Below the pieces are notes generated by a model. It ran no database searches and was not told where the DNA came from. It worked only from the letters and a program-made list of their open reading frames with translations. The translations under genes were made by a program, and so were the position numbers. This document shows, in pieces, positions 15,481 through 48,003 of a stretch of 64,000 nucleotides of DNA. The stretch lies in sequence record NC_103192.1; one strand, written 5' to 3'. The first letter of the stretch is position 1, and every line of letters begins with the position of its first letter. The DNA is from a phage.

Positions 15481-15481
15481 A

Positions 15482-15979: not shown

Positions 15980-16360
15980 TTATGACACTTTGACGTAGCG
16001 CTCTGACAGAGCTGGAAAGCCAAAAGCAGTACCTATACTACCGTATGCTACCCACCATTGAAGTTCATCGTGACACCATTTTCCGATCAGGAAGGTGCTG
16101 GGGTAGCGGGTCAGTATTTTGGCATAAGCTTTAGGATCTGCATCCTCTGGGATAATGATACTTGGAACATCTTTGTTATGACCACAGCAGCAGTTTAGAG
16201 TTTTCAATCCTGCCGCCCATAGACTCATGATAGGCTTAGCCATGCACTTATCAAGGCACACACGTTTTTTGCCGTCACGGAGCTTTTTAGGCACATCAAC
16301 GATAACATTTTGATGCTTGGCACCTTTCACTTTCCAATTATAGGATTTACACTTGCACAT
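15980..16360 (-). CDS. hypothetical Cys-rich protein
   Basis: 126-aa ORF with CCCGHN cluster; function unknown. Confidence 0.5.
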   Translation of the reverse strand: MCKCKSYNWKVKGAKHQNVIVDVPKKLRDGKKRVCLDKCMAKPIMSLWAAGLKTLNCCCGHNKDVPSIIIPEDADPKAYAKILTRYPSTFLIGKWCHDELQWWVAYGSIGTAFGFPALSERYVKVS

Positions 16361-16390
16361 TTAATCAGTCTCCATCTAGAAAGCAATACT

Positions 16391-16561
16391 TTACTTAAAG
16401 TCTTTATCACCTGCCACGATTGCATGAATCCACTCATTGTGATGCTCAATAGCGGTGAGATGTAACATGATGTAGTGATCGTCATTGCCAAACATGATAT
16501 GATAGGCTTTGGCAGCATTTTGATATAACTTCCACATCAGGTAATGATATCTTCGCCTCAT
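16391..16561 (-). CDS. small hypothetical protein (56 aa, below ORF-track cutoff)
   Basis: ATG 5 nt downstream of stop of 16567-17037 with GGAG upstream; translation MRRRYHYLMWKLYQNAAKAYHIMFGNDDHYIMLHLTAIEHHNEWIHAIVAGDKDFK. Confidence 0.4.
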   Translation of the reverse strand: MRRRYHYLMWKLYQNAAKAYHIMFGNDDHYIMLHLTAIEHHNEWIHAIVAGDKDFK

Positions 16562-16566
16562 GGCTC

Positions 16567-17037
16567 TTACTCCGGTTCAGGATCTGGGTAATCTTCGATA
16601 ATAAAGGGCCATCCGTTCCGCTTAGCCGCAGACTTATACTCGATCTCCTTCATTGCAAACTCTAACTGATTCTTAGCCGGAATACATGCCGGAGAATCAT
16701 CAATCCAGATATCTGGGTAGATATCAAACTGCGCCAGATAGGCTGCCTTCTGGACACCACCAGTATAAAACACACCAACATCGAGATCCTTACGCCAATA
16801 CTCAATGTCTACATTATCTTGAGTAATGAATCGGAAAGTCACAAGGTATACTGTCCACCCTTCCTTTTTCAAGTCCCTAATCAGGCGGGAGAAGATGAAA
16901 GGACTCGCATTAAATGTTCCATCAAAGTCAATGGCAATGATGTGTGTGCCGTGGCGTGTCTCATATGGATTGCTTGTGGTAAGATTGCTGTAGTTAAAAG
17001 GAACTTCTTCCCCGCAGTAGCTGTAGTCCATATTCAC
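16567..17037 (-). CDS. HAD-superfamily phosphatase (5'-nucleotidase-like)
   Basis: motif I IIAIDFDGT (DxDGT) near N-terminus. Confidence 0.6.
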   Translation of the reverse strand: MNMDYSYCGEEVPFNYSNLTTSNPYETRHGTHIIAIDFDGTFNASPFIFSRLIRDLKKEGWTVYLVTFRFITQDNVDIEYWRKDLDVGVFYTGGVQKAAYLAQFDIYPDIWIDDSPACIPAKNQLEFAMKEIEYKSAAKRNGWPFIIEDYPDPEPE

Positions 17038-17309
17038 ACCTTCTCGTTGATAAATTTACGGGCGGTTTGGTGAGTTGTTTCTGCTGTCTTCAGAATGATA
17101 TTAATCTTATTGTCAAGATCATTCATCTCTGCAGTTAATTCAGGAATCTCTCCGGCATGCATAGTGAAATCATACATAGACATGCCCAGAATCTCATTGA
17201 TTCGGCGGTTGCATTCTGCAGCACGCTGGTTCATTTTCCAAGCTAACACCAGAGCCTCTTGCGTAGCCTCCAGTGCAAAGTCTAATACGTCAGCTTCTTC
17301 TTTCGTCAT
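17034..17309 (-). CDS. hypothetical protein
   Basis: 91-aa ORF, stop/start overlap with next gene. Confidence 0.5.
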   Translation of the reverse strand: MTKEEADVLDFALEATQEALVLAWKMNQRAAECNRRINEILGMSMYDFTMHAGEIPELTAEMNDLDNKINIILKTAETTHQTARKFINEKV

Positions 17310-17364
17310 CTCAGTCTCTCTTGTTGTATTGTTGGTAGGTGCATGAACACCTTATATCTCACTT

Positions 17365-17931
17365 TTATTCAAACTGCAATAGCAAGTCCACCACCGCACT
17401 AGGCCTGTCAACAAATTCCCCAGGCCCACATGCCCATAGAGGGTATCCATCAACATACCGCCATATCCAACCTGCAGTGTGAAGCTCAAGCAGGGCAGTG
17501 CCGTCCTTACTGTCAACCACCCTTTCCCACAGTGTTGGGCAGCGAAGCTTGAGAATCGGGTCCCCGCCCTTATACCCGTCCATGTAGATACCCATTGCAA
17601 AGTTCAGCATCATCTTTTTGTGCACTGATCTTTTACTGAGGGTGCTCATCACTTCCTCTTTGTGAATGTTTGTAAGCTTCTCTTTGGCTACCCGCAGATC
17701 ATTGCAACCATTGTTCAGCAGATCTTCCAGACACTTGATCCGAAGGTCGTGAATGTCTTTGTCGTGTACCGTTGGCACAGGGTCGTAGCGGTATAGCACT
17801 GTTGATACAAGGTTGCTCGGGTGTGGGTCTGACAGCAACCCATAACCCCAATACTCCTCTGTATCTGAAAGGACAAGACACCCAATGTCTCTGTCAAGCT
17901 TTCCTGTGTTGTAAGCCACATTGACCGCCAT
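17365..17931 (-). CDS. hypothetical protein
   Basis: 188-aa ORF. Confidence 0.55.
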   Translation of the reverse strand: MAVNVAYNTGKLDRDIGCLVLSDTEEYWGYGLLSDPHPSNLVSTVLYRYDPVPTVHDKDIHDLRIKCLEDLLNNGCNDLRVAKEKLTNIHKEEVMSTLSKRSVHKKMMLNFAMGIYMDGYKGGDPILKLRCPTLWERVVDSKDGTALLELHTAGWIWRYVDGYPLWACGPGEFVDRPSAVVDLLLQFE

Positions 17932-17933
17932 GA

Positions 17934-18179
17934 CTATAGCTCCACTAGCAAAGTGCTTTCAAAGTGCCGTTCATGCAAACCATTGTAAGGGACCACTTCT
18001 ACAACGCCATCACGGACATATGGGGCCATCATAGTGGTATAATCTCCAAACGGGTTGGTATTGTCACTAACCACAACCACCTTCTGCCCTTCCTTGGCAG
18101 AGTGCCAAATAGATCTGCACTTCATCAGGTGTTCGAGAGCTCCAGGTAAAATTTTGTTACGTTCTTTACGAGTCTTCAT
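17934..18179 (-). CDS. hypothetical protein
   Basis: 81-aa ORF. Confidence 0.5.
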   Translation of the reverse strand: MKTRKERNKILPGALEHLMKCRSIWHSAKEGQKVVVVSDNTNPFGDYTTMMAPYVRDGVVEVVPYNGLHERHFESTLLVEL

Positions 18180-18625
18180 AACAGGTATAGCTCCTTATGA
18201 AAGTGATCTTTTAATTTCTCACTGAGAAACTTCTTGATACCTTCCTCTAAAGTGTTTTCGATGTAGTCCAGCTTAACTGCTTCGATGGACATATCATAGA
18301 TCGCCAGCTCTAAGCTGTCAAGTCCCATCATAGCATGAACCATAAGATTTTCATCTTCAGATACATTCAGGGGGCTTCCTATAACATCTGGAGGCAGAAT
18401 AGTTTCCCAATTATTCTGGGTGGTAGTTCTCCCTCCCTCTACTTTACGGCGCAGTTCGAATGTGTTCTTAGTGTAGAACACTTCATAAGAAACGATACGA
18501 CTGTCGCTCTCATAATAAACGAAGTTCAGGTAGGAGCCTAGCCGCAGTCGGCAAACTTCCACCCCAAACCATTGTTTCTTATAAGAATTCAGGCTAATGC
18601 TGTCGCATTCACGTTTGCTCAACAC
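18176..18625 (-). CDS. hypothetical protein
   Basis: 149-aa ORF overlapping the neighbouring gene by 4 nt. Confidence 0.55.
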   Translation of the reverse strand: MLSKRECDSISLNSYKKQWFGVEVCRLRLGSYLNFVYYESDSRIVSYEVFYTKNTFELRRKVEGGRTTTQNNWETILPPDVIGSPLNVSEDENLMVHAMMGLDSLELAIYDMSIEAVKLDYIENTLEEGIKKFLSEKLKDHFHKELYLL

Positions 18626-18641
18626 GGCTCTCTCCTTCTTG

Positions 18642-18875
18642 TTAATCTTCGTAAATAATGATTTCTGCTTTAGGTTTTCGTGCTTTCAGGTCCAGCTCTA
18701 TCCAGTGCACCATCGCTGTTTCAAGAAAAACAGCCTGGATGCATCCGTCTTCAGCGTGCCCTACCAGCATAACAAGATCTTCACATTCATCATCTGCATC
18801 ACGGACATACAAGATCTCTCCAGATTCAAAGTCTTTCACAACCTGATTGCTGGATAATTTACGAATTTTTGCCAT
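18642..18875 (-). CDS. hypothetical protein
   Basis: 77-aa ORF. Confidence 0.5.
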   Translation of the reverse strand: MAKIRKLSSNQVVKDFESGEILYVRDADDECEDLVMLVGHAEDGCIQAVFLETAMVHWIELDLKARKPKAEIIIYED

Positions 18876-18876
18876 A

Positions 18877-19140
18877 TCAGAAACCCTCTAAAAAGCTCTT
18901 GTAGAAAATAATCTCAGTATCCACACCAGTCACGATCTTGTCGTTCCAGATTTCATCTGTAAGATAGGTGTCAAAACGCAGCACCTGTGTGGTATTGTCA
19001 CACATCCACTCGGCTGTGACCATGGCAAAAATCTTGGCATCTTCATTATCTGGTGTGAATGTTACCACCTCGCCGCACTTAAACTTTTCGATAGGTTGAG
19101 TGTTAGCTTTCGGTTCTGCGATAGTGATTTTCGTGGTCAT
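18877..19140 (-). CDS. hypothetical protein
   Basis: 87-aa ORF. Confidence 0.5.
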   Translation of the reverse strand: MTTKITIAEPKANTQPIEKFKCGEVVTFTPDNEDAKIFAMVTAEWMCDNTTQVLRFDTYLTDEIWNDKIVTGVDTEIIFYKSFLEGF

Positions 19141-19406
19141 TACTCTTCCTCCATAGTTTCACCAAATACTTCGATACGAGCATCGAGCTCGGTTGCTTTC
19201 AGCTCACCAACAAAATCTTTTAGTTCTTTCTCGTCCAGATCGTAAGCCCACACACAAGAAGAACATGCAGATTTCACAATCAGCAGCGTAGATACACGAC
19301 CTGACTCCGTGATCATGCTCACAATGGTTCCTACAGGGAACGTGTTGATAGCTTTTTTAACTGGGCGTTCAGCTTTGATTACTACCTCTGTTGCCATAAA
19401 TAACAT
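19140..19406 (-). CDS. hypothetical protein
   Basis: 88-aa ORF. Confidence 0.5.
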   Translation of the reverse strand: MLFMATEVVIKAERPVKKAINTFPVGTIVSMITESGRVSTLLIVKSACSSCVWAYDLDEKELKDFVGELKATELDARIEVFGETMEEE

Positions 19407-19412
19407 CCTCTC

Positions 19413-20894
19413 TTATTTAGCGTACCCGATCAATTCTACAGTTTTCCCAAAGCTTGGGATATAATTTTTATTATACCCTTCGGTGAGAACCCATAAAGTA
19501 TCGTACTTTTTCCACTTGTTGTCAACAACCTTTTGTTCAAAGTTGTGCTCAAAGTAGAGGTCGGTCAGGACGATGACATCTTTTGCATTTGGTATGTTAG
19601 CGTCCAGATACTCGAACACGCAAGCGGCTGTTGTGCCCCATGTTGAGTGGACCTCGTAGTTGATCATCTCGTCGATGTTCCCGCGAGTGTATACTTTAAC
19701 CTCTCCAACCTCAGTTGACCAACAGAACATCGTAACCTTGAACTCTTTATACAGATTGCACAACCCAGTGATCTCATTGAACATTTTCTTTAAAGTTCTT
19801 TGTGAGATCGATCCAGAAACGTCTAAAGCCACCACAATATCTATAGTGTTTTCCGGATTACGACCAGGAACAACAACGTGCTGATTCTTGTTTATAGCTC
19901 CAACTTTTCGCATTGTGCTGGTCAAAGACCCAGATCGGCGACCAGGTTTTCTGTAGGTTAGTTCAGCCTTTCGTTTAGACAGCATACGTTGCTTAATGAT
20001 GTCTATATAATTGATTACAGGCTTGCCTCTGTTTTTGACAAACTCGCGCACAGCCTCAGGGCAACGACCTCCGGAAGCTTGCATTGCTGCTTCCAACATG
20101 TCACCAGAGTCCTGCATGGCCTGATCTTTATCAGATTGACTGATCACGGGTTGTGGCTGATCATACCCCATAGCCTTTCCAAGATCGTCACTTGTGCCAC
20201 CGTTCCCACTCATGTGATCATCGGTTTGTCGTTTATCTCCTTGAGAGTTCTCGCCTTTACCGTTCTTACTTTTACCACTATTCTGATCTCTTTGCTTATC
20301 AAGAACTGCATAGACGTTCTCAGCAATCCATCCATGGAACCTCATGTCACAGTAGCAACTAGCTAAGAAGCCAAAAGGCTTACCTTTTACGAACGTAGTG
20401 CTTTTCCCCTTCGGAAAGAAAACACAAGGGGGCTTGCTAAAGTCAACCACAAGACCTGTGTTGATAACATGATCACAGGCAATATTGAACAGTTCCGGCT
20501 CAAAGCTTTTACCACGGACCAGATGATCGCAGATAATATGCCCCACTTCATGCGATAGAAGAAAGGCCACCTCTTTCACAGATTTGGGGGAATAGAAAAC
20601 CTCAGCCATCTCAAACTGCTCGTCAGTCAGAGATGCTTTAAGAATGGTTTTGCGCTCATCAGCCAGTCCCATAATGAACTCGGGACTGTAATAAATGCGT
20701 TTATGGTCTGTTGCCATGGTGGAGCACCATGTGTGGTTTTCTACGAACTGCAGCCCTGACAATAGTGTGCCATAAAACGGCAGTTTTTCAAGAAGATACA
20801 TGCGTGCTGCCTGCAGCATTCGCAAGGCGTCATCTTTTTGTGCGGCAATGATTTCTGAACTTCTGCTATCCATTAAAACTCCAGAAGGGGCCAA
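19413..20894 (-). CDS. metallopeptidase-like / von Willebrand factor A domain protein (CobT-like)
   Basis: HEVGHIICDH (HExxH) in N-terminal half; vWA MIDAS-type start IVVALDVSGSIS in C-terminal half. Confidence 0.75.
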   Translation of the reverse strand: MAPSGVLMDSRSSEIIAAQKDDALRMLQAARMYLLEKLPFYGTLLSGLQFVENHTWCSTMATDHKRIYYSPEFIMGLADERKTILKASLTDEQFEMAEVFYSPKSVKEVAFLLSHEVGHIICDHLVRGKSFEPELFNIACDHVINTGLVVDFSKPPCVFFPKGKSTTFVKGKPFGFLASCYCDMRFHGWIAENVYAVLDKQRDQNSGKSKNGKGENSQGDKRQTDDHMSGNGGTSDDLGKAMGYDQPQPVISQSDKDQAMQDSGDMLEAAMQASGGRCPEAVREFVKNRGKPVINYIDIIKQRMLSKRKAELTYRKPGRRSGSLTSTMRKVGAINKNQHVVVPGRNPENTIDIVVALDVSGSISQRTLKKMFNEITGLCNLYKEFKVTMFCWSTEVGEVKVYTRGNIDEMINYEVHSTWGTTAACVFEYLDANIPNAKDVIVLTDLYFEHNFEQKVVDNKWKKYDTLWVLTEGYNKNYIPSFGKTVELIGYAK

Positions 20895-20902
20895 CGGCCC
20901 CT
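20886..20902. other. GC stem-loop between two minus-strand genes
   Basis: aggggccaacggcccct; no T-run on the minus strand, so more likely a processing/stability hairpin than a terminator. Confidence 0.4.
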
Positions 20903-20906
20903 GTCA

Positions 20907-21962
20907 TTATTTAACGTGCTTGAAAATACCAGCCAACTCGGTCATTGTCATGCGAGTGGTCTTCATAAGGTCTGTCATAGCCTTCTCCATAATTGGAGAT
21001 ACTACCATAAAGTTACCTTTGGTGAAACCTTTATTCCAGTCGGTCACTAATAACGGTTTAAGTCCTGCCCCGAAACGCTCACCAGTTAAAGCACAGCATT
21101 TTCGAATGTACGTGCTCTTAAATTGGCTGAATGACAGATCAACTTTCATACCTGCATCGTAGAACGTCTGGCAATAGAAAGTGTAGGCTTTAGCAATCTC
21201 AACATCGTCAGGCAGTGCAGGAACCTCTTCTGTAAGCCCTTCTTCGACCTTTTGAGGCTCTTTTTCCTCTTCGTGAGCCTGTTGCGTCATTTCTTCAATC
21301 TCTTCTGTTACAGGCTCATTTACGATGTCAGAAATGTGCTTGTTGGCTTCACGATTAGCCATGAAGTTTTTAAAATCCTGCATTGGTGACATATCTTCCT
21401 CCCATTCTTCGTCAAAGAGTGCCAGTTTATCCTCTTCCGTTCCATATTGCAAGATGAAATCTTCAAAAGTGTAATCACCTTTCAATTTCTCCATGCGCTC
21501 TTCGCTCAGGTGAAGCATCATCTGCTGGACAATTTTTCGATCAGTTTTGTCTTTAATCAAGACTGCGGTCTTTTTATCTACCAGACAGTCCTTCAGGGAG
21601 TTGCACCTTAACCCAACCACACAACAGTTATCAATTGCGTAAGGACCTTCATCATCTATCCGCTCTAAGGATGGATAGAAAGGATTGCCCAACCCGTTTT
21701 CATCTGTGTGCATGTCAAAAGGTATAAGGGTATAGTCGCACACCCCCTCTCCTAAAAGTTTTTTACCAAATAGGAGGTATTCTTCCCATGACAGGTTGAA
21801 CTCTATATCTCGTTTCCGTGCATTATTTTGTTTGCGTCTGTATTTTTTGAGCAGGCGCTCTAACTCTTCTGGTGTATAATATTTTTCAAGATTCATAAGT
21901 CGTCTCTTGTGCTTTGTAGGTGAAGAAATCTTATCAAGTGCCTCAACAGATGTCAACCTCAA
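20907..21962 (-). CDS. hypothetical protein with two HNH_3-like repeats
   Basis: SLERIDDEGPYAIDNCCVV resembles HNH_3 core, second degenerate copy near C-terminus; product tentative. Confidence 0.45.
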   Translation of the reverse strand: MRLTSVEALDKISSPTKHKRRLMNLEKYYTPEELERLLKKYRRKQNNARKRDIEFNLSWEEYLLFGKKLLGEGVCDYTLIPFDMHTDENGLGNPFYPSLERIDDEGPYAIDNCCVVGLRCNSLKDCLVDKKTAVLIKDKTDRKIVQQMMLHLSEERMEKLKGDYTFEDFILQYGTEEDKLALFDEEWEEDMSPMQDFKNFMANREANKHISDIVNEPVTEEIEEMTQQAHEEEKEPQKVEEGLTEEVPALPDDVEIAKAYTFYCQTFYDAGMKVDLSFSQFKSTYIRKCCALTGERFGAGLKPLLVTDWNKGFTKGNFMVVSPIMEKAMTDLMKTTRMTMTELAGIFKHVK

Positions 21963-22038
21963 AAACGTGTTGACTTTACTCTAAATCCACGATATAGTGC
22001 ACCCATTCTAAAGAAAACGAACACAGGATCACTTAATC

Positions 22039-22938
22039 ATGTCAAATCTTAACAGCTTTAGCACTCGGTGGAAACAAGATATCACAACCAATCTCTCAGC
22101 AGGGGATATCCTTTCTGCAATTTACGAGGCCTTGGATGATAAAGCTACTTCAAAATCGGTCTGTACCAACCCGCTAATTCCTATAGTAATGAAGGTGATT
22201 GAACGTAGGTTGGTATCCGGATCTGATAAGTGGACATATCTGGATAATGGAGGCCACACTTACTCCAACGGATATGTTGATATAAAAGTGGAATACGCAG
22301 TATCATATCGCCGGAGCGGCTCTGTAACTTTCAACTTCTCTGGTGGTTTCCGATCTCTGGCAACTTCACCTTTTGTTTCCTCAGAGGAGAAGTTTGAACT
22401 TCCGTTCCTTTGGATGATGGCTAACGCGACAGGCAAAACCCCTGTAAGCATTCGCGTAAAATACAACTACAACGGATCTAGTAAGATCTATGCCGAGAGT
22501 GTCTCAGCAAGTTTTTATTTTGTGATGGGAGATGGAATCCTCAAACATATAAAGATGTGTGATATGCATGATGTTATAAATGAAGTAACTGATAAGAATG
22601 TTCTAGTAAAAGACCTCAACAATTTTTATACACCTGGAGACTATTACGTCAACCGTCCACTGTGCATCTTTAATGCCGCACACCCTTTAGGTGAGTATTT
22701 GATCGCCAATAGCGATATTGCCAATAACCGCTTCGAGGTAGCAAGAGTACAGAATGAGGTGTTGACATCTTGCAAGAGTGGTGATAAGTTTACCGAAGAA
22801 GAGATGAGTGTTTTAGAAATGATGGGATATAAGTGTAGCCTTTGGGTAGATGAGGTGTTTAATGACGGCATCTATGGACAGGATATTTACCCGTTAAAGA
22901 AGTATACTGATTCCAGTTTAATTTACGCGGAGATTTGA
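22039..22938 (+). CDS. hypothetical protein
   Basis: 299-aa ORF, first gene of plus-strand block after divergent intergenic region. Confidence 0.6.
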   Translation: MSNLNSFSTRWKQDITTNLSAGDILSAIYEALDDKATSKSVCTNPLIPIVMKVIERRLVSGSDKWTYLDNGGHTYSNGYVDIKVEYAVSYRRSGSVTFNFSGGFRSLATSPFVSSEEKFELPFLWMMANATGKTPVSIRVKYNYNGSSKIYAESVSASFYFVMGDGILKHIKMCDMHDVINEVTDKNVLVKDLNNFYTPGDYYVNRPLCIFNAAHPLGEYLIANSDIANNRFEVARVQNEVLTSCKSGDKFTEEEMSVLEMMGYKCSLWVDEVFNDGIYGQDIYPLKKYTDSSLIYAEI

Positions 22939-23213
22939 CTATGATGAAGTCATGTGGTAGTGTATATTATGTTGGTGAGGATGTTCAGGCAGATAGTGTG
23001 TGGAAATCCATTAAGTCCACCACCGACGATGCCTTCTTGAGCGGGTTATGTTTCCCCAATCCAGGAGACATTCTCCCTCACCCTGGAGATTTTGTTGTCA
23101 ACAAGACGGACGGTTATACCGTGTGCCTGATGGTTGAAAAAATCTTTTTAGACACTAGACACAATCACCGTCTTGTGCTAAAATTTCAAGAATGTAAAAT
23201 GACAGTTGCCTAA
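22935..23213 (+). CDS. hypothetical protein
   Basis: 92-aa ORF. Confidence 0.45.
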   Translation: MTMMKSCGSVYYVGEDVQADSVWKSIKSTTDDAFLSGLCFPNPGDILPHPGDFVVNKTDGYTVCLMVEKIFLDTRHNHRLVLKFQECKMTVA

Positions 23214-23226
23214 GGAGGCCTTACCG

Positions 23227-23583
23227 ATGTCCAAAGTTACTTATCGTGCAGCTATTTACTGCAATGAACAACCAATCAATAATGACGGTCACTGCCTTTT
23301 TAAAGAAAATCAGTTGGGCTGTATTGTCCTCCCTGATGAAGGGGAAGGTTATCTGATTGCATTGACAGGGTTTGAGCCTGAAGCCTTGGAAGCCAATCTG
23401 GACTACCTGGTAGAGAAGGGTGCTGCAGACCTGGTTGCCAATGGCCTCTCCATAAGCCTTGAAGAAGTGGAGCGCTTCATGGGCAATTACCGTGTAGTGC
23501 GTGAGTTTACTGTCGAGGTGGAAACTCCAGAGTGGGGTAGCACTGAAACTAATGCTGAAGAAAAAGAAGAGGAGGTAGAATAA
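23227..23583 (+). CDS. hypothetical protein, acidic C-terminus
   Basis: ATG 8 nt after AAGGAGG; C-terminal EEKEEEVE. Confidence 0.5.
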   Translation: MSKVTYRAAIYCNEQPINNDGHCLFKENQLGCIVLPDEGEGYLIALTGFEPEALEANLDYLVEKGAADLVANGLSISLEEVERFMGNYRVVREFTVEVETPEWGSTETNAEEKEEEVE

Positions 23584-23840
23584 TGAAAGTGCAAATCTTG
23601 ACTAATGCCGAGAAGATGTTTATCGAAGATACGCCTTTTGAAACTGGTGAGCTACAGTTTGTATATTTTGTTGACTTAGATAAGGTTTTTCCTGCGCTGA
23701 ATCTGGGTTTGGAGAAAGTACCTTATAAAACTCTATGCCAGGTTGTCCGTGCCTTAGCGGCAGATGGGGAGTTCCGCACCCTTGAAGATATCCAGACCTG
23801 TGGGTATCTTGAACTGCAACGAGAAGAAGAGGTGGACTGA
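23583..23840 (+). CDS. hypothetical protein
   Basis: 85-aa ORF, ATGA overlap with upstream gene. Confidence 0.5.
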   Translation: MKVQILTNAEKMFIEDTPFETGELQFVYFVDLDKVFPALNLGLEKVPYKTLCQVVRALAADGEFRTLEDIQTCGYLELQREEEVD

Positions 23841-23842
23841 TA

Positions 23843-24223
23843 ATGGCCCAGTGGAAGACAACAGTTGACCTTCATGATCAGTGGTTAGGACGCATCACCG
23901 AAGACGGGAAACTAGTGGAGTGGGACAACAAGCATGTTAGCGAGTTGGCAAGCATTGTGGCTGGTAAATTACGCTCCAAGTTCCCTGAACAACTGGATCC
24001 TGATAGTTCAAAGTTCGATCCTGAGTTGGAGGATGTTGTATACTACTTCGACACCGTTGATGACTACGACGCGTGGTTTGCAGCACGGGAGCTTTACCCA
24101 CAAGGCTCTGCTATGCGCCAGATGGAAGAAGATTATCCTCCGTGTGAGCAATTCAATAGTGCAATGACTTGCCTCTATGATTGGGCAGATAAGAACCTTG
24201 TCTGGATTCGGACTGCATTTTAG
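23843..24223 (+). CDS. hypothetical protein
   Basis: 126-aa ORF. Confidence 0.5.
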   Translation: MAQWKTTVDLHDQWLGRITEDGKLVEWDNKHVSELASIVAGKLRSKFPEQLDPDSSKFDPELEDVVYYFDTVDDYDAWFAARELYPQGSAMRQMEEDYPPCEQFNSAMTCLYDWADKNLVWIRTAF

Positions 24224-24267
24224 TGGGCAGGAATGGCGGCAAGGATGCTGCTTAAGGAGTAGTAGAG

Positions 24268-24537
24268 ATGTTATACCAGCAATATGAACTTCGTGCAGAA
24301 AAAGAGTTAAATTTTGACAAAGATATTCACAGATATTATTATGGGAAAGTTAGAGGGCAAGCAAGAAAGTGTACTCCAACACTCTTTTATGCCAGCAGAC
24401 GACTAGCGCCAGAAGAGGCAACAGCAGAAAGGGTTGCATATGGCTGGAGAGTTGCGTATGATATTGACAGATCCGATGTGATGTCTGTTTTGGAAAACTT
24501 TGAAAACACTTACACACAAGTAGAGGACTTTTACTAA
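24268..24537 (+). CDS. hypothetical protein
   Basis: 89-aa ORF directly coupled to the ATPase gene. Confidence 0.5.
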   Translation: MLYQQYELRAEKELNFDKDIHRYYYGKVRGQARKCTPTLFYASRRLAPEEATAERVAYGWRVAYDIDRSDVMSVLENFENTYTQVEDFY

Positions 24538-25721
24538 TGTCAAGAAACGTATTCGAAAGTGGTCAAATCACTGTCCGCGAGTTGCCAGCTATTATTCAAT
24601 TTGCCCAGCGTCATAACCGATCTGTCCTGATTTTAGGACCGATGGGTGTGGGGAAGAGCCAGGTGATGAAGCAGATTGCTGATAATATGTTCGGTGAGCG
24701 AGATGACAACCTGGTTGACGTGCGGCTGTCAGATAAAGATCCTGCTGACTTGTCTGGACTACCTATCCCTGTAGAGGCAGATGGAACTACACGCACAGTG
24801 TTTGCAATTCCAGAATTTTGGCCTGCAGACTCGGACTGGAGCGGAATTATCTTTCTGGATGAGCTTACTCATGCAGATAACTACCTGCAGAAGGTTGCAA
24901 TGCAAATTATGCTCGACCACAAGTGCGGCACCTATGCATTTCCTAAGGGCTCTGTTTTTGTAGCTGCAGGTAACCGTTCTACAGATGGTACGGTTCTTTC
25001 GGCGCTCGAAGCTCCTCTGGCTAACCGCTTTATCATTGTAGAAGTTACAAGCAATGCAGAGGTGTTTATTGAGGACTATGCATTCCTTAATGGGGTGCAC
25101 TCCTCTGTAATTGGATATTTGAAAAGAGTTCCATCAGCTATTGATAATTATGAGGCTATGGCTGAGATTAATTGTCCATCTTTTGCCACACCGCGATCTT
25201 GGGTTGCTGCATCTGATATCTTGCACGATTTTGACAGCGGTATTATTTCTGACGCTATGGCCCGTGTTCTTCTGCAAGGTGCTATTGGTCACACTGCAGC
25301 GGTAGAGATCTGGACTTACCACACCAAGAAACGCAATTTACCGGAAATCGGTCGGATTATGGCAGGTGGCTGCAAAGAATACGTAGGTCCTAAGCAGCCA
25401 GACATTTTGTGGATTCTTGGATCTGAAGGTTGTATCGCTATTCGTAATATGATGGAAAATGCAAGTATCTCAGACGAAGATCTTGTCAGCTGCGTGGCAA
25501 ACTTCCTCGATTTCCTTTGGGAAAACTTCAAGGACGAGAACCGAGATTTTGTATTCTCAGTCTTTATGGCGATGATGAAACCTAATGCCTTAGGAAATGC
25601 CTTGCTTATCGGTAAAGGGCGTGACAAGATTGTTGCTCAGCTGATCAAAGCATACCCAAACCTGATGAAGATTGTAAAAGAGTTTGGTGAAGAGTTTAGC
25701 GCCATTTTGGCTAAAGCTTAA
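24537..25721 (+). CDS. AAA+ ATPase, MoxR/CobS-like
   Basis: Walker A GPMGVGKS, Walker B IIFLDELTHA, sensor-like AAGN. Confidence 0.8.
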   Translation: MSRNVFESGQITVRELPAIIQFAQRHNRSVLILGPMGVGKSQVMKQIADNMFGERDDNLVDVRLSDKDPADLSGLPIPVEADGTTRTVFAIPEFWPADSDWSGIIFLDELTHADNYLQKVAMQIMLDHKCGTYAFPKGSVFVAAGNRSTDGTVLSALEAPLANRFIIVEVTSNAEVFIEDYAFLNGVHSSVIGYLKRVPSAIDNYEAMAEINCPSFATPRSWVAASDILHDFDSGIISDAMARVLLQGAIGHTAAVEIWTYHTKKRNLPEIGRIMAGGCKEYVGPKQPDILWILGSEGCIAIRNMMENASISDEDLVSCVANFLDFLWENFKDENRDFVFSVFMAMMKPNALGNALLIGKGRDKIVAQLIKAYPNLMKIVKEFGEEFSAILAKA

Positions 25722-25730
25722 GGGGGTTGT

Positions 25731-26111
25731 ATGGCTAAAGTAGGTAAGCGGGGAAACTACCTGGTGGTATTGACCGAGGAGCCGGAGAAGGAGTACGAAT
25801 GCAGCTCCACTTGCGTGATCGATATCCGAGAAAAAGATGTAGATGAAATCTGGTTTAAAATATTGGACGCTTGCGATAGCAGTGATTATTTCTTCATCTA
25901 TGTCAACGATAAGGCTGGGTTCTTCCATGACGACGGAGAGTTGCCGTATGAAATCTATGAACTTGTAGAGGCTTGCCATCGTGGAGATGCGGAGTTATTT
26001 GGCTTACGGCTGAAAAGCGGTAAATTCTTCTACCAAGACGAGTGCATGAATCTTCACAACTTCGTAGAGGGAACTTGCAACGATGGAGAGATTTTGGCAC
26101 ACTACGACTAA
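25731..26111 (+). CDS. hypothetical protein
   Basis: 126-aa ORF. Confidence 0.55.
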   Translation: MAKVGKRGNYLVVLTEEPEKEYECSSTCVIDIREKDVDEIWFKILDACDSSDYFFIYVNDKAGFFHDDGELPYEIYELVEACHRGDAELFGLRLKSGKFFYQDECMNLHNFVEGTCNDGEILAHYD

Positions 26112-26123
26112 TTTCTAAGACCA

Positions 26124-26150
26124 CCCCCGCTTCGGCGGGGATTTTCTATT
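26124..26150 (+). terminator. intrinsic terminator
   Basis: cccccgcttcggcgggg (UUCG loop) followed by attttctattt. Confidence 0.6.
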
Positions 26151-26160
26151 TGGAGCTATT

Positions 26161-26661
26161 GTGAAAATTAAAATCTTTGCTATTATTTTGAGCGCATTTT
26201 TATCGCTGCCTGTTGTTGCAGCACCCAAACAAAAAGTATATCACACCTGCAAGCCATCGGATACTAAGGAGAACATTCTGGCATGCAATATCTACAGGGA
26301 AGCCAGAGGAGATGGCACGATGGGTATGCTGGCATCAGGGTTTGCCACACTAAACAGGAAATCTCACCCCAAATACCCGGACACCATAAGAAAGATTGTC
26401 TACCAACCTAACCAGTTTTCGTGGACAAACCACGGCAAAACTTTTAAGGTGACAGAAAAAGATTCATGGGATCACGCTAAAAGTCTTGCAAAGATGCTTC
26501 TAAAGGTCTATAATAACAACCATGTTGCATACATGGCTATGGATATAACAGGTGGAGCAACGCACTATCATACAACAAAAGTACGACCGAAATGGGCAAA
26601 AAAGATGCAGAGGACAGCTCAATTCGGGAGTCATATCTACTACAAGGAGCGCAATAAATGA
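26161..26661 (+). CDS. SleB-type cell wall hydrolase with signal peptide (candidate endolysin)
   Basis: N-terminal MKIKIFAIILSAFLSLPVVAAP signal-like segment; NIYREARG motif of the Hydrolase_2 family; GTG start after GGAG. Confidence 0.7.
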   Translation: MKIKIFAIILSAFLSLPVVAAPKQKVYHTCKPSDTKENILACNIYREARGDGTMGMLASGFATLNRKSHPKYPDTIRKIVYQPNQFSWTNHGKTFKVTEKDSWDHAKSLAKMLLKVYNNNHVAYMAMDITGGATHYHTTKVRPKWAKKMQRTAQFGSHIYYKERNK

Positions 26662-28640
26662 TTGTAAACAGTAATGAAACTAAAGCAGTACTAACCGGAA
26701 ATATGGAGGTCACCAGGGGCTCAATTTCTCTGAACAAAGAGACTTTTGGGCTAATCATTAAAGGGATTTACGAAGATAAGGTGCTGGCAAGCTGCCGTGA
26801 ACCAATCTTCAATGCCGTGGACTCCCATGTTGAGTCTGGACGAGGTGATGTACCGATCATTATTCACTCTCCTACAGACCTTGAACCATACTTCTTTGTG
26901 CAGGACGTTGGATTGGGCATGTCAGAAGAGATGGTCCGCAACACTTTCATGAACCTCGGGGAGTCAACCAAGCGCAACAGCAACGCTCTGGTAGGTAATA
27001 AAGGTGTAGGTTCAAAGGCCCCGTTCAGCATGGTGGACACTTTCGATGTGATCAGTGTGCACAACGGTGTTGAAAGCACATATCTGTTGTTCTTGGATCA
27101 GGGTATCCCAAACGTTACCAAGATCCGCGAGCGGAAGACTGAAGAGCACAACGGGGTAAAAGTTCAGTTCCATGTTAAGAAAGAGCATGTCCTGAAATAT
27201 CGCACTGCTATTGCATCGTGCTTACGCTATGCGAAGTTTCCGTTCACCGTCACCGACCCTATGACCAGTAAAATGCTGGAAGGTGACAAGGTTGAGGCGC
27301 AGTATCACTACGAGAAAGATGGTTGGAAAATGACTATCCTAAAGGGCTATACCAGCTCTGACGAGAGTCGTGTGGTAATGGGGCACCAACCTTACCGATC
27401 TAAATTTCTGGAAACATTGACAGACTACCCTGCAATCTGTGTAGAGATCCCTATCGGGGATTGCAATATTAACCCAGGGCGTGAATGGACTATAGAGGGT
27501 CACGACGATGGTGGATTCCAAGAGCGTCTGGAGGCTTTTGTCAAAGAGGGTATCCGCCTACGTGGGGCAGAAGTTGTTGCGGAATTAGAGACAGCAAAAA
27601 CATCCTCAGAAGCACGCGAGATGATGAAGAACAGTGGAGTGTTCGGGCACATCTTCGGTAAAAATTTTATGTGGGAACGATGGGAAGAGACAGGACTAGG
27701 AAGCTTGGGAGATTGCGAGATCTTCGCTGGCGGCTTAAATAAAGGCCGTATAGGTTACGCCTGCTACGGAAAGGTAGAATTCTTACGGGGAGTCTATTTA
27801 GTATTTAACGACGGAGACGGCAAATATAACCGAAATAAGTGTAACTACTTAAGCGAGATCACCGGACGCAACGTTTTCTATTGCCGAAACACGGATCTGG
27901 TGAAAGAGTTTAAAGAGGCGGCACACCATCCTTTCTTTGCAGATACGGTCAAATTGTTATCAGAGCTCCCTCGCCGACCTGCGAAGAAAGGTGAAACAAA
28001 AACTCATTATGAGCCAGGCTATTGGGTTAAAAAACTTGAGAAGGATGGTTACTTCCGTCGTGAGCGTATTACTAAGGCAGAGTTCAAGAAGATTAAGCAC
28101 TGCATTCCTTATGAGGGTGATATCCAACGTGGAAGTTGTTGGCTGGGACAGCTAAGTAACATCTACCAGCAAAATTATGACCGTGTGCGTGCGGCACTCC
28201 AGATTCCTGAAGGGGAAGATCTGTACCTGGTATCAGAATCTCGTCTGCTTTGGACTGATCCTGATTGCCAGTATGTTACAGAGAAAAATGTGGAACATTT
28301 GTTGAAAGAGGACGCCTGGAAATTCTTACTGACTCGCGCAGCAAATGAAACTTCATATGACAGCCTGTATAGACAATTAGGGAAAATTATCCCCATGCAA
28401 GATTTTGGAAATTATCGGCCACATTTTCACAAGTGGGAAGGTAACACCGCGTGGAAGCACAGTGAGCTAAATCATCGTGCCAAAATCTTAATCGCCAACC
28501 GAGTCAAGTGCGGGAAGGCCTATATTGCAAGATTGGAAAAGAAATATCCACTTTTGAAGCATGTGGGCTTGAAATATTGGGACACTCCTGCTATGATTGA
28601 ATACCGTGAACTGATCGACGCAAAGAATAACACCAAATAA
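26658..28640 (+). CDS. rIIA: rIIA-like protein (GHKL ATPase fold)
   Basis: DVGLGMSEEMV and GNKGVGSKAPFS match the T4 rIIA ATPase motifs; immediately followed by rIIB. Confidence 0.75.
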   Translation: MIVNSNETKAVLTGNMEVTRGSISLNKETFGLIIKGIYEDKVLASCREPIFNAVDSHVESGRGDVPIIIHSPTDLEPYFFVQDVGLGMSEEMVRNTFMNLGESTKRNSNALVGNKGVGSKAPFSMVDTFDVISVHNGVESTYLLFLDQGIPNVTKIRERKTEEHNGVKVQFHVKKEHVLKYRTAIASCLRYAKFPFTVTDPMTSKMLEGDKVEAQYHYEKDGWKMTILKGYTSSDESRVVMGHQPYRSKFLETLTDYPAICVEIPIGDCNINPGREWTIEGHDDGGFQERLEAFVKEGIRLRGAEVVAELETAKTSSEAREMMKNSGVFGHIFGKNFMWERWEETGLGSLGDCEIFAGGLNKGRIGYACYGKVEFLRGVYLVFNDGDGKYNRNKCNYLSEITGRNVFYCRNTDLVKEFKEAAHHPFFADTVKLLSELPRRPAKKGETKTHYEPGYWVKKLEKDGYFRRERITKAEFKKIKHCIPYEGDIQRGSCWLGQLSNIYQQNYDRVRAALQIPEGEDLYLVSESRLLWTDPDCQYVTEKNVEHLLKEDAWKFLLTRAANETSYDSLYRQLGKIIPMQDFGNYRPHFHKWEGNTAWKHSELNHRAKILIANRVKCGKAYIARLEKKYPLLKHVGLKYWDTPAMIEYRELIDAKNNTK

Positions 28641-46809: not shown

Positions 46810-47007
46810 ATGATTTATCGAATCCGTGTAAGAGAAGATGCACCAGGCTGTTACTTTGACTGGCGTGGGTGGTGGTTTCTCCACCCAATGGATGGACTCA
46901 CAGATAGAATGCTAGATGCTGCCCTTTACACAGATACTGACATAGAGTATAATCTTTACTTGAAGGATGGTATCGATAACGGCCTGTTTGAAGCAATTCC
47001 TGCGTAA
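46810..47007 (+). CDS. hypothetical protein
   Basis: 65-aa ORF after AGGAGG. Confidence 0.45.
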   Translation: MIYRIRVREDAPGCYFDWRGWWFLHPMDGLTDRMLDAALYTDTDIEYNLYLKDGIDNGLFEAIPA

Positions 47008-47075: not shown

Positions 47076-47501
47076 ATGATTTATGAAATGCCAAAACTGA
47101 TTCGTGACGATGCACGAAACGCCCACACCTTTATTATGGGCAAGCGCATGGATATTATTTGCCACAAAGATTTCTGGGAAGGGAGCTACTTCACAGAATA
47201 TTTTGGAAAAATGGATGATGGCCTACTGATCCAGTTCTACACCGATGCGGAAAACAACATTAATTGGGAGTTCGAGACCGAAGATATCCATAAACTTTTC
47301 ACCTTCCTCAATATTAAGGTTAAGGCCAAGTTTGAAGAGGGTGAGTGCGACGATTGTGGATTTTATGAGGTAACAGATTTCTATCTTCCTAGTGGTAAAA
47401 ACCTTTACTATGAAAGCCACTTCGGTAACTCCAATATGCCACAGTGCTGGACTGAGTTTTTTGAAGTTGTGGAAGAGGAGCTGGAATATCGTGATTATTG
47501 A
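47076..47501 (+). CDS. hypothetical protein
   Basis: 141-aa ORF. Confidence 0.55.
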   Translation: MIYEMPKLIRDDARNAHTFIMGKRMDIICHKDFWEGSYFTEYFGKMDDGLLIQFYTDAENNINWEFETEDIHKLFTFLNIKVKAKFEEGECDDCGFYEVTDFYLPSGKNLYYESHFGNSNMPQCWTEFFEVVEEELEYRDY

Positions 47502-47949
47502 TACTGTAGAGGGAGATTTAATCTCCCTTTTTAAGAGCGGTGCTGGTCACCTGATCCACGGTTGTAACTGCTTCCACACAATGGGTAAGGGGATAGCAAA
47601 ACAGATTGCCCGTGAGTTCCCTCAAGCATTGGCAGCTGACAAAGAGACCAGATATGGTTGCCTAAGTAAACTGGGTGCGTTCTCCCGCTGGGAGCACTTA
47701 TCTCCGAGAGGTATTGTCTACGGAATCAATCTGTATACTCAGTTCTACCCAGGACCTAATGCTGAATATTTCTCAATCCTGAAAGGCTTTGAGCTAGTCA
47801 ATAAGGTATTCAGTGGATCGACTTTACCATTCTACATCCCTAAGATCGGGTGCGGCATAGGCGGTTTGAAGTGGGAGCACGTAGAGGACGTTATTAACCT
47901 TGCCACTTTTGATATAGATATTATCGTGGTGGAGTACAAAGAGTGTTGA
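47491..47949 (+). CDS. macro domain protein, TARG1/DarG (Macro_2) type ADP-ribosyl hydrolase-like
   Basis: GDLISLF...AGHLIHGCNCFHTMGKGIAKQIAREFP and PKIGCGIGGLKWEHVEDVI align with the TARG1 motifs (GDLF...AHCIS.DCRMGAGIA; PRIGCGLDRLQWENV) as recalled; GTG start inferred. Confidence 0.7.
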   Translation: MIIDTVEGDLISLFKSGAGHLIHGCNCFHTMGKGIAKQIAREFPQALAADKETRYGCLSKLGAFSRWEHLSPRGIVYGINLYTQFYPGPNAEYFSILKGFELVNKVFSGSTLPFYIPKIGCGIGGLKWEHVEDVINLATFDIDIIVVEYKEC

Positions 47950-48003
47950 CAGATATATTTTAAGGTGGTATAGTCACCACAACGATTAAGACAGAGGAGC
48001 ACT

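What the first reader, a model, noticed from the sequence alone, without database searches (positions are those of the whole stretch)
47491..47949. Phage-encoded TARG1/DarG-type macro domain: candidate anti-defence ADP-ribosyl hydrolase
The ~152-aa product carries two motif blocks that line up with the Macro_2 family as recalled (human TARG1, DarG antitoxin): IHGCNCFHTMGKGIAKQIAREFP and PKIGCGIGGLKWEHV. Enzymes of this family remove ADP-ribose from protein or DNA. In a promoter-dense small-gene region of a lytic phage, the simplest role is reversal of host ADP-ribosylation-based immunity (for example DarT-type DNA ADP-ribosylation) or another ADP-ribosyl signalling step. The start codon is inferred (GTG at 47491 overlapping the upstream stop).
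Basis: partly seen in the sequence, partly recalled or inferred. Interest (0 to 1): 0.7.

Follow-up and report, generated by a model that had tools for sequence, protein, structure and literature searches.

The report
Phage macrodomain, likely anti-DarT eraser
This small early gene of an rV5-like E. coli phage encodes an ADP-ribose-processing macrodomain related to phage T4 Tk.4/AdfM, which T4 needs to grow on hosts carrying the DarTG2 DNA-ADP-ribosylating defence; it is a real but already recognised kind of phage counter-defence gene.

Summary
Window 47491-47949 (+) is a conserved 152-aa gene of a Vequintavirus (rV5-like) phage, with a conserved GTG start. Both quoted motifs are present.

- **Domain:** it is a macrodomain by Pfam (PF01661, above cut-off), by PDB sequence matches (DarG, TARG1, SCO6735, BT1257, Poa1p) and by a pLDDT 96.8 model (TM 0.78 to TARG1).
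- **Prior knowledge:** relatives are already annotated "macro domain protein".
- **Closest characterised relative:** T4 Tk.4 (38% identity, E 3e-40). A 2025 preprint named it AdfM because deleting it sensitises T4 to DarTG2.
- **Most likely function (confidence about 0.6):** early removal of DarT2-added ADP-ribose from thymidines in phage DNA.

- The Pfam family is Macro, not Macro_2.
- The catalytic Lys of DarG/TARG1 is an invariant Gln (150/150 cluster representatives), as in SCO6735, which hydrolyses thymidine-linked ADP-ribose on DNA.

Main rival: the same family contains Adpp, a phage ADPR-1''-phosphate phosphatase that works inside NARP1 NAD+-rebuilding operons. No NARP1 genes were found in this window or in a close relative's genome.

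Verdict: new member of a known kind; modest interest.

The parts
47491..47949 (+). Macrodomain gene (152 aa, GTG start, TGA stop). Member of the T4 Tk.4/AdfM - Adpp phage family (PHROG 335).
47554..47622 (+). Motif block 1, IHGCNCFHTMGKGIAKQIAREFP. It carries H23, N26 (codon 47566-68) and the first diphosphate-binding loop, G32-K-G-I-A36.
   Evidence: N26 is conserved in 150/150 and H23 in 148/150 cluster representatives. N26 aligns with DarG N22 and SCO6735 N27; H23 aligns with SCO6735 H24 and Poa1p H23.
47728..47742 (+). NLYTQ motif. Q84 (codon 47740-42) sits where DarG and TARG1 have the catalytic Lys and where SCO6735 has the essential Gln85.
   Evidence: Q84, N80 and Y82 are conserved in 150/150 representatives. 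SCO6735 Q85A is inactive (PMC9411070).
47839..47883 (+). Motif block 2, PKIGCGIGGLKWEHV: the second diphosphate-binding loop (P117, G120, G122, G125). G124 occupies the position of TARG1 D125.
47475..47480 (+). GAGGAG Shine-Dalgarno sequence, 10 nt upstream of the GTG start.
   Evidence: Sequence.
47076..47501 (+). Upstream 141-aa gene of unknown function (PHROG 8157). Its stop overlaps the macro start by 11 nt, so the two are probably one bicistronic, translationally coupled unit.
   Evidence: One natural allele, P0017, fuses this gene's N-terminus to the macro C-terminal half.
46925..46953 (+). Sigma-70-like promoter TTTACA-17-TATAAT (11/12), the likely driver of the 47076 gene plus the macro gene.
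   Evidence: consensus scan only.
47946..47974 (+). Sigma-70-like promoter TTGACA-17-TATAGT with an extended TG (11/12). It overlaps the macro stop codon and starts the next small-gene unit.

Best explanation
The gene encodes a stand-alone, single-domain macrodomain enzyme of the phage Tk.4/AdfM lineage.

**Proposed mechanism.**
- It is transcribed early from host-type promoters.
- It binds the ADP-ribose that the host DarT2 toxin attaches to thymidine N3 in single-stranded phage DNA.
- It hydrolyses the C1''-N glycosidic bond. This releases ADP-ribose and restores replicable DNA, so the phage can grow on DarTG2 hosts.
- Catalysis does not use the DarG/TARG1 lysine. An invariant Gln84, held in place by Asn26, would position the distal ribose for water-mediated cleavage, as proposed for Streptomyces SCO6735.

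**Shown here:**
- the macrodomain fold;
- a conserved ADP-ribose pocket;
- the Gln-type active site;
- homology to T4 Tk.4;
- purifying selection.

**Inferred:** the substrate (thymidine-linked ADP-ribose on DNA) and the anti-DarTG2 phenotype in this particular phage.
For: **Homology to T4 Tk.4/AdfM.**
- Window versus T4 Tk.4 is the best-scoring pair among all anchors: 120 bits, 38% identity, full length, E 3e-40.
- T4 Tk.4 hits the window only at 47491-47940.
- T4 tk.4 is the single DarTG2-conditional gene in T4. Its clean knockout is DarTG2-sensitive, and it is non-essential on K-12.

**Defence-family profiles.**
- PADLOC DarG matches at E 2e-13. That is better than T4 AdfM's own match, E 1.3e-9.
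- The NCBIfam DarG model matches over the macro part.

**Structure and active site.**
- The model has pLDDT 96.8. Its top PDB folds are TARG1, Poa1p, DarG, BT1257 and SCO6735.
- Q84, N26 and H23 align with SCO6735 Q85, N27 and H24. SCO6735 cleaves dT-ADPr DNA, Q85A and N27S inactivate it, and it protects against DarT.
- These residues are invariant across 150 diverse cluster representatives.

**Domain fusions.** Macros with the same HGCN...NxYTQ motif are fused to NADAR, the guanine-ADPr DNA eraser used by DarG1 and AdfN. This was seen in P0107, P0153 and P0208, 3 of the 10 family members over 200 aa that were scanned.

**Genome context.**
- No NARP1 genes and no Alt-like ADP-ribosyltransferase were detected in the window or in JES2013, a 94%-identical relative.
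- The gene sits in an early, promoter-dense region.

**Accessory-gene signature.** Intact copies are under purifying selection. Deleted or frameshifted alleles also occur in nature, as expected of a conditionally useful counter-defence gene.
Against: - No experiment exists for any Vequintavirus protein. The Bas54 (Vequintavirinae) transposon library does not appear to have been challenged with DarTG2 in the passages read.
- For T4 AdfM only genetics is reported. DNA de-ADP-ribosylation is assumed, not shown.
- A 35%-identical family member, Adpp, is a proven ADPR-1''-phosphate phosphatase.
- The tree separating the window+T4 group from Adpp has only 66/100 bootstrap support.
- The N-terminal motif IHGCNC...G.GIA.Q is nearly identical to that of yeast Poa1p, an ADPR-1''-P phosphatase.
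- The protein misses the DarG equivalog cut-off (45.8 versus 250 bits). It also lacks the DarT-binding domain and the catalytic Lys.
Confidence: 0.6

Rival explanations
1. It is an ADPR-1''-phosphate phosphatase like phage Adpp or yeast Poa1p. It would convert the ADPR-1''-P made by RES-type (aRES) NADases into ADPR. This could be its main role, or a second activity of the same C1''-directed active site.
For: - Vibrio phage Chester gp175 is 98.7% identical to the biochemically validated Gary Adpp. It is 35% identical to the window protein (E 3e-20) and also has Gln at the key position.
- Chester gp175 lies between the Adps-like and Namat-like genes. A Pakpunavirus homologue lies beside the same two genes.
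- The N-terminal motif closely matches Poa1p, including H23 and a hydroxyl residue at position 30. Those are the positions mutated in PDB entries 6lfs and 6lft.
- Databases call the family 'phosphatase'.
Against: - Adpp is useful only together with NARP1 (Adps + Namat). tblastn with Chester Adps and Namat finds nothing at E<=1 in the window or in the whole JES2013 genome.
- The window protein scores much higher with T4 AdfM (120 bits) than with Adpp-type proteins (69-80 bits).
- The two NARP1-linked examples carry HQxN...YGQ, while the window, T4 and 196 of the 216 sequences aligned carry HGxN...YTQ. With only two examples this is a weak discriminator.
- T4, which also lacks NARP1, needs its copy against DarTG2.
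Confidence: 0.17
2. It reverses ADP-ribosylation of a different target. Candidates are proteins or RNA modified by other host ADP-ribosyltransferase defences or toxins. Another option is O-acetyl-ADP-ribose, or protein-ADPr, produced by the phage's own Sir2-family enzyme.
For: - The TARG1-class fold is the top structural match.
- SCO6735 also acts on ADP-ribosylated protein.
- JES2013 encodes a Sir2-like protein (ORF78) next to a nucleotide pyrophosphohydrolase.
- From general knowledge, macrodomains of this class hydrolyse O-acetyl-ADP-ribose (not tested here).
Against: - The TARG1 Lys/Asp dyad for Glu/Asp-linked protein ADPr is absent.
- The Sir2 gene lies about 50 kb away in JES2013, outside this window. 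No link to the macro gene was established.
- No Alt-like transferase was found.
- The only phenotype known in the lineage is DarTG2-specific.
Confidence: 0.15
3. It is a non-catalytic ADP-ribose binder or sponge, for example sequestering ADPR-derived immune signals or blocking DarT by binding.
For: - It lacks the canonical catalytic Lys.
- Catalytically dead SCO6735, DarG and TARG1 still inhibit DarT by interaction.
- One fusion relative gives a weak ThsA_Macro hit.
Against: - Q84, N26 and H23 are invariant, which is the pattern of an enzyme. The same residues are essential for SCO6735 catalysis.
- The Adpp homologue is a proven enzyme.
Confidence: 0.05

Closest known systems
T4 Tk.4 = AdfM (anti-DarT factor macrodomain; HIDEN-SEQ preprint 10.1101/2025.11.20.689424)
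   Same: - Stand-alone phage macrodomain of about 150 aa; 38% identity over the full length (E 3e-40).
- Identical HGCNCFHTMG, NLYTQ and P.IG.GIG motifs.
- Non-essential accessory gene of a large lytic E. coli myovirus.
   Different: - Different phage subfamily and different neighbours: in T4 the gene lies between vs and tk.3.
- The Vequintavirus protein is untested.
- DNA de-ADP-ribosylation is not yet shown even for the T4 protein.
Adpp, the NARP1-associated ADPR-1''-phosphate phosphatase of Vibrio phage Gary (bioRxiv 10.64898/2026.01.28.702374)
   Same: - Same phage macrodomain family: 35% identity, E 3e-20.
- Gln at the key position.
- An anti-defence role connected to NAD+ chemistry.
   Different: - Adpp lies between Adps and Namat and acts on a small molecule.
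- The window phage has no NARP1 genes.
- Motifs are HQCN/NVYGQ in Adpp versus HGCN/NLYTQ here.
Streptomyces coelicolor SCO6735 (PDB 5E3B) and Bacteroides BT1257
   Same: - Gln replaces the catalytic Lys; the His and Asn partners are conserved.
- SCO6735 hydrolyses thymidine-linked ADPr on DNA and protects from DarT.
   Different: - Only 38-42 bits of pairwise similarity.
- The loop after the Gln is 6-7 residues shorter here, about the DarG length.
- These are bacterial housekeeping proteins, not phage genes.
DarG2 antitoxin macrodomain (T. aquaticus 5M31/5M3E, M. tuberculosis 5M3I)
   Same: - Best PDB sequence hit: E 5e-7 with the single sequence, 1.9e-17 with the profile.
- Same fold and the same catalytic Asn.
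- Presumed same substrate.
   Different: - Lys80 is replaced by Gln.
- No C-terminal DarT-binding domain and no adjacent DarT gene.
- Far below the NCBIfam equivalog cut-off.
Chimallivirus AdfM (PhiKZ gp104; Cell Rep 2026, PMC13309987)
   Same: A phage-encoded orphan macrodomain that counters DarTG2. For PhiKZ gp104, removal of T-linked ADPr from DNA has been shown in vitro.
   Different: - A separate lineage: 20% identity, 24 bits.
- PhiKZ gp104 is DarG-like (133 bits to PADLOC DarG; ITVN...FPTK with Lys78) and is imported into the phage nucleus.
Human TARG1/OARD1
   Same: Top structural match (TM 0.78, E 3.8e-10). The ADP-ribose-binding loops are shared.
   Different: The K84/D125 catalytic dyad is replaced by Q84/G124. 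TARG1's target is Glu/Asp-linked protein ADPr.

Membership tests
Macro domain (Pfam PF01661) | Profile score above Pfam's gathering threshold | tested here: met
   28 bits versus a cut-off of 22, E 2.3e-6. Macro_2 gave no hit at E<=1.
Macro domain (Pfam PF01661) | Three-layer alpha/beta/alpha macro fold | tested here: met
   AlphaFold2 pLDDT 96.8, pTM 0.91. Foldseek gives TARG1 at TM 0.78, with DarG, Poa1p and SCO6735 all at probability 1.00.
Macro domain (Pfam PF01661) | ADP-ribose pocket: N-terminal Asp contacting adenine, plus two Gly-rich diphosphate loops | tested here: met
   D9, G32-x-G34-x-A36 and P117-x-x-G120-x-G122-x-x-G125 are conserved in alignments with ligand-bound PDB chains. 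This rests on alignment only; no docking was done.
T4 Tk.4 / AdfM lineage | Full-length homology to T4 Tk.4 with a reciprocal single hit | tested here: met
   38% identity, 120 bits, E 3e-40. T4 Tk.4 hits only 47491-47940 in the window.
T4 Tk.4 / AdfM lineage | Groups with Tk.4 rather than with the Adpp-type homologues | tested here: inconclusive
   - Highest pairwise score is with Tk.4.
- In the NJ tree, the window+T4 clade (22 of 216 leaves) excludes Adpp.
- Bootstrap support is only 66/100.
T4 Tk.4 / AdfM lineage | Required for plating on DarTG2 hosts | not testable with these tools
   Genetic evidence exists only for T4.
DarG antitoxin (type II TA, DarTG2) | NCBIfam NF048014 equivalog cut-off | tested here: not met
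   45.8 bits versus a cut-off of 250. Only the macro part (positions 3-143 of 338) matches.
DarG antitoxin (type II TA, DarTG2) | Catalytic Lys (T. aquaticus K80) and Asn (N22) | tested here: not met
   The Asn is present (N26), but the Lys position holds Gln84.
DarG antitoxin (type II TA, DarTG2) | C-terminal DarT-binding domain and an adjacent DarT (DUF4433) gene | tested here: not met
   The protein is 152 aa, macro domain only. The ten neighbouring ORFs tested give only one Pfam family above threshold, a phage zinc-binding domain, and no DUF4433/DarT hit. A genuine DarT-DarG pair is shown for contrast.
TARG1/OARD1 | Lys84/Asp125 catalytic dyad | tested here: not met
   Q84 and G124 occupy these positions. 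Across 150 representatives the second position is Ala or Gly.
SCO6735-type Gln macrodomain (dT-ADPr DNA hydrolase) | Gln at the catalytic position with the His and Asn partners | tested here: met
   H23, N26 and Q84 align with H24, N27 and Q85.
SCO6735-type Gln macrodomain (dT-ADPr DNA hydrolase) | Extended mobile loop after the Gln, and close sequence relationship | tested here: not met
   The loop is 6-7 residues shorter. Pairwise similarity is only 42 bits, against 182 bits between SCO6735 and BT1257.
Adpp (NARP1-AP phosphatase) | Homology to Vibrio phage Gary Adpp | tested here: met
   35% identity, E 3e-20, to Chester gp175, which is 98.7% identical to Gary Adpp.
Adpp (NARP1-AP phosphatase) | Encoded within or next to a NARP1 operon (Adps + Namat) | tested here: not met
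   No Adps or Namat homologue at E<=1 in the window or in the JES2013 genome. The neighbours are unrelated small ORFs.
Adpp (NARP1-AP phosphatase) | ADPR-1''-phosphate phosphatase activity | not testable with these tools
   Needs an enzyme assay.

The most novel reading that the evidence does not exclude
The Tk.4/AdfM-Adpp phage macrodomains may form one large Gln-type clade of general 'C1''-leaving-group' hydrolases. If so, a single 150-aa enzyme could cleave both thymidine-linked ADP-ribose on DNA and ADPR-1''-phosphate. The same gene would then serve against two unrelated NAD+-based defences, DarTG2 and aRES, depending on what else the phage carries. The Lys-to-Gln switch would mark this broadened, water-mediated chemistry. 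The macro-NADAR fusions would be all-in-one erasers of T-linked and G-linked DNA ADP-ribosylation.
Probability: 0.15. Interest if true: 0.55.

Novelty: new member of a known kind. Interest (0 to 1): 0.3.

Why it matters
DarTG systems occur in pathogenic E. coli and other clinical bacteria, and Vequintavirinae are popular therapeutic phage candidates. Knowing that they carry a probable anti-DarTG2 gene helps predict host range. It also helps to know that some natural isolates have lost the gene.

Two experimentally defined counter-defence proteins, AdfM of T4 and Adpp of Vibrio phages, turn out to be homologues. They share an invariant Gln where DarG and TARG1 use Lys. Naming phage macrodomains by homology alone is therefore unsafe. 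The finding also points to a simple biochemical comparison that would define substrate specificity in a family found in more than 2,700 of about 50,700 sequenced phage records.

Tried and rejected
- **Macro_2 label.** Rejected. Only PF01661 matches, and TARG1, DarG, T4 Tk.4 and PhiKZ gp104 match PF01661 as well.
- **Longer ORF from GTG 47392 (185 aa).** Rejected. It overlaps the upstream gene, and the N-termini of homologues and the annotated CDSs support 47491.
- **Functional partner among neighbours.** The ten flanking ORFs gave only unknown PHROGs, an endonuclease VII and a phage zinc-binding domain. No DarT, transferase or NAD-pathway gene turned up.
- **A phage ADP-ribosyltransferase that the macro might balance, or a NADAR (AdfN) partner.**
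  - tblastn with T4 Alt and T4 AdfN found nothing below E=1 in the window or in JES2013.
  - This test is insensitive. The published Bas60-62 NADAR needed DELTA-BLAST to be found.
- **Phylogeny to separate AdfM-type from Adpp-type.**
  - The NJ tree agrees with the AdfM assignment.
  - Bootstrap support is weak: 66/100 for the window+T4 grouping, and 20/100 for monophyly of the phage family versus DarG/SCO6735.
  - It is not used as strong evidence.
- **Genomic context of the macro-NADAR fusion proteins.** The contigs are short or full of ORFans and were uninformative.
Full report
**What the window is.**
- The region 46.0-49.5 kb is 92-95% identical to about 115 Vequintavirus (rV5-like) E. coli phage genomes, including ECML-10, JES2013, I29 and rV5_ev168.
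- The whole window maps onto JES2013 across the ends of that record.

**Checking the observation.**
- The gene runs from GTG 47491 to TGA 47947-49 and encodes 152 aa.
- The GTG overlaps the stop of the upstream 141-aa gene (GTGATTATTGA). It follows a GAGGAG ribosome-binding site at 47475-47480.
- The same 459-nt CDS with the same GTG is annotated in I29, rV5_ev168 and JES2013.
- Homologues from many phages start at the equivalent residue.
- Between diverged Vequintavirus alleles, synonymous changes outnumber non-synonymous ones 17 to 5, giving dN/dS of 0.08-0.13.
- The surrounding 8 kb carries more sigma-70-like promoters than shuffled sequence does: 26 versus 15.3 +/- 4.0. A near-consensus promoter lies about 120 nt upstream of the 47076 gene, and another overlaps the macro stop codon.
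- The gene therefore looks like the second cistron of a short early transcription unit.

**It is a macrodomain of the TARG1/DarG/SCO6735/Poa1p class.**
- Pfam Macro (PF01661) is passed at 28 bits against a cut-off of 22.
- PHROG 335, annotated 'phosphatase', matches at E 2.5e-59.
- The single sequence finds M. tuberculosis DarG (5M3I, E 5e-7). It also finds Poa1p, SCO6735, BT1257 and TARG1 in the PDB.
- A 69-sequence family profile raises these matches to E 1e-17 to 1e-13.
- An AlphaFold2 model built on that alignment has pLDDT 96.8. Its best PDB folds are TARG1 (TM 0.78, E 3.8e-10), Poa1p, both DarG macrodomains, BT1257 and SCO6735.
- The adenine-contacting Asp (D9) and both glycine-rich diphosphate loops are conserved.
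TARG1 and DarG themselves fall in PF01661.

**The active site is not DarG/TARG1-like.**
- The profile-to-PDB alignments and a direct multiple alignment place Gln84 (motif NLYTQ) exactly where DarG has its catalytic Lys (FPTK) and TARG1 has Lys84 (ITK). Gly124 sits where TARG1 has Asp125.
- This is not a quirk of one allele. In 150 representatives of different 50%-identity clusters, Q84, N26, N80 and Y82 are conserved 150/150 and H23 148/150.
- The same Gln, with the same His and Asn partners, occurs in Streptomyces SCO6735 and Bacteroides BT1257.
- SCO6735 efficiently removes thymidine-linked ADP-ribose from DNA and protects against DarT. Q85A/E mutants are dead and N27S is almost inactive. 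A water-mediated mechanism positioned by Gln85 has been proposed for it (PMC9411070).
- The phage protein is still only distantly related to SCO6735 (42 bits), and its post-Gln loop is 6-7 residues shorter.

**Relatives with known function.**
- tblastn finds the family in 2,721 phage records, including the tk.4 gene of T4-like phages.
- The T4 Tk.4 protein is 38% identical over its full length (E 3e-40) and shares HGCNCFHTMG, NLYTQ and the C-terminal loop.
- A 2025 preprint found tk.4 to be the single T4 gene that becomes conditionally essential on a DarTG2 host. It confirmed this with a clean knockout and named the gene adfM. The gene is dispensable on K-12.
- Independently, chimalliviruses carry a different macrodomain, PhiKZ gp104, also named AdfM. 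It removes T-linked ADP-ribose from DNA in vitro.
- PhiKZ gp104 is Lys-type and DarG-like: 133 bits to PADLOC DarG. It is only 20% identical to the window protein.
- The window protein matches PADLOC DarG at E 2e-13, better than T4 AdfM does at 1.3e-9. It falls far below the NCBIfam DarG equivalog cut-off and has no DarT-binding domain.

**A second function in the same family.**
- In Vibrio phage Chester the homologue sits between a Prs-like gene and a Nampt-like gene. In a Pseudomonas Pakpunavirus it lies beside the same two genes.
- These are the Adps and Namat genes of the NARP1 NAD+ reconstitution pathway.
- A 2026 preprint shows that the macro protein in this position in Vibrio phage Gary, named Adpp, is an ADPR-1''-phosphate phosphatase. 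It lets NARP1 overcome the RES-domain defence aRES.
- Chester gp175 is 98.7% identical to Gary's protein and 35% identical to the window protein (E 3e-20).
- AdfM (T4) and Adpp are therefore homologues, and homology alone cannot fix the substrate.

**Why the AdfM reading is preferred.**
- The window protein scores 120 bits with T4 AdfM, against 69-80 bits with the two NARP1-linked proteins.
- It shares HGxN...YTQ with T4, whereas both NARP1-linked proteins have HQxN...YGQ. This contrast rests on only two examples.
- No Adps or Namat homologue exists in the window or in the complete genome of JES2013, so an Adpp would have no pathway to feed.
- Three of the ten longer family members scanned, all with HGCN...NAYTQ macros, are fused to NADAR. 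NADAR is the domain that DarG1 and phage AdfN use to erase guanine-linked DNA ADP-ribosylation.
- The NJ tree groups the window protein with T4 and away from Adpp, but with only 66/100 bootstrap support.
- I put about 0.6 on the anti-DarT2 DNA-eraser role and about 0.17 on an Adpp-like role. The remainder goes to other ADP-ribosylated targets or a binder role.
- Both chemistries are displacements at the distal-ribose C1''. A dual-activity enzyme therefore cannot be excluded.

**Other context.**
- Neighbouring genes are uninformative.
- No Alt-like transferase or T4-type NADAR was detected, though the test was insensitive.
- JES2013 carries a Sir2-like gene elsewhere in its genome, which keeps an O-acetyl-ADP-ribose role formally open.
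- Natural contigs of Vequintavirus size carry inactivated alleles. These include a deletion fusing the upstream gene to the macro C-terminal half, an in-frame deletion between the two WEH motifs, and frameshifts.
- Together with purifying selection on intact copies, this is the pattern expected of a conditionally useful counter-defence gene.

**Verdict.**
- The gene is already annotated as a macrodomain in public records, and the anti-DarTG2 role of its lineage has been published.
- It is therefore a new, untested member of a known kind.
- The points this analysis adds are the invariant Gln-type active site, the homology between AdfM (T4) and Adpp, the macro-NADAR fusions and the naturally inactivated alleles.

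Noticed in passing
Related contigs: proteins P0017, P0020, P0029, P0037 and P0054. The corresponding window region is 47076-47949.: Several natural contigs, four of them 12.9-135.5 kb long, carry broken alleles of the macro gene:
- P0017 fuses the N-terminus of the upstream gene to the macro C-terminal half.
- P0020 has an in-frame deletion between the two WEH motifs.
- P0037 and P0054 are frameshifted.
- P0029 has its C-terminal half replaced.

The gene is repeatedly lost in nature.
   Followed up: partly
P0107 (L011:6001-7419), P0153 (L010:114-1250), P0208, P0152: Family members with the same HGCN...NAYTQ macro are fused to NADAR (three proteins) and/or to DUF4326. These could be combined erasers of thymidine-linked and guanine-linked DNA ADP-ribosylation. 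The contigs are ORFan-rich and virus-like.
   Followed up: partly
L013:4132-7138 (Vibrio phage Chester); L014:1-2983 (Pseudomonas phage vB_Paer_PsIn): In two unrelated phage lineages the macro homologue lies within or beside the Prs-like (Adps) and Nampt-like (Namat) genes, which form a NARP1-AP operon. The T4 AdfM family and the Adpp phosphatase family are therefore homologous. None of the papers read here states that relationship.
   Followed up: yes
JES2013 record positions 64781-68633 (L006:14781-18633), outside the window: The close relative JES2013 encodes a Sir2-like protein (ORF78) next to a nucleotide pyrophosphohydrolase. Upstream lies a phosphoesterase / ATPase / RNA-ligase-like trio. 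The same three annotations occur near the NARP1 cassette of Vibrio phage Chester. This may be another NAD+-related module.
   Followed up: no
window 37106-41180: - The DNA polymerase region differs from JES2013. About 1.7 kb (39118-40839) replaces 0.42 kb of JES2013 sequence.
- The polymerase ORF is 1132 aa, against 925 aa in JES2013, and a separate 118-aa ORF follows it.
- I29 annotates an HNH homing endonuclease at this position.
- The HNH gene that precedes the polymerase in JES2013 is absent from the window.
- This looks like mobile endonuclease traffic around the polymerase gene.
   Followed up: partly
window 1-28640 and 28651-64000: The window aligns to JES2013 positions 28434..1 and then 136900..102318. 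It runs straight across the ends of that linear record, which suggests the record ends are arbitrary (a permuted or circularly assembled genome).
   Followed up: no
window 48144-48395: The small ORF after the macro gene carries a phage zinc-binding domain (PF23903, E 1.5e-22). The PHROG match and the I29 annotation suggest the true start is further downstream, near 48201, than the longest ORF implies.
   Followed up: no
Plasmid record CP057073.1 (hit H81); protein P0002: A 137.6-kb 'E. coli plasmid' carries a macro gene 81% identical to the window's. An E. coli assembly contig of 136.8 kb (P0002) carries one 83% identical. Both are probably Vequintavirinae phage genomes deposited as bacterial replicons.
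   Followed up: no
L009:1-4038 (Paracoccus marcusii plasmid pMARC5): A canonical DarT (DUF4433) - DarG pair lies directly downstream of E2/UBC, ThiF-like E1 and DUF6527 genes. The DarG is Lys-type (NFPTK) and 337 aa long. The arrangement looks like a small defence island.
   Followed up: no
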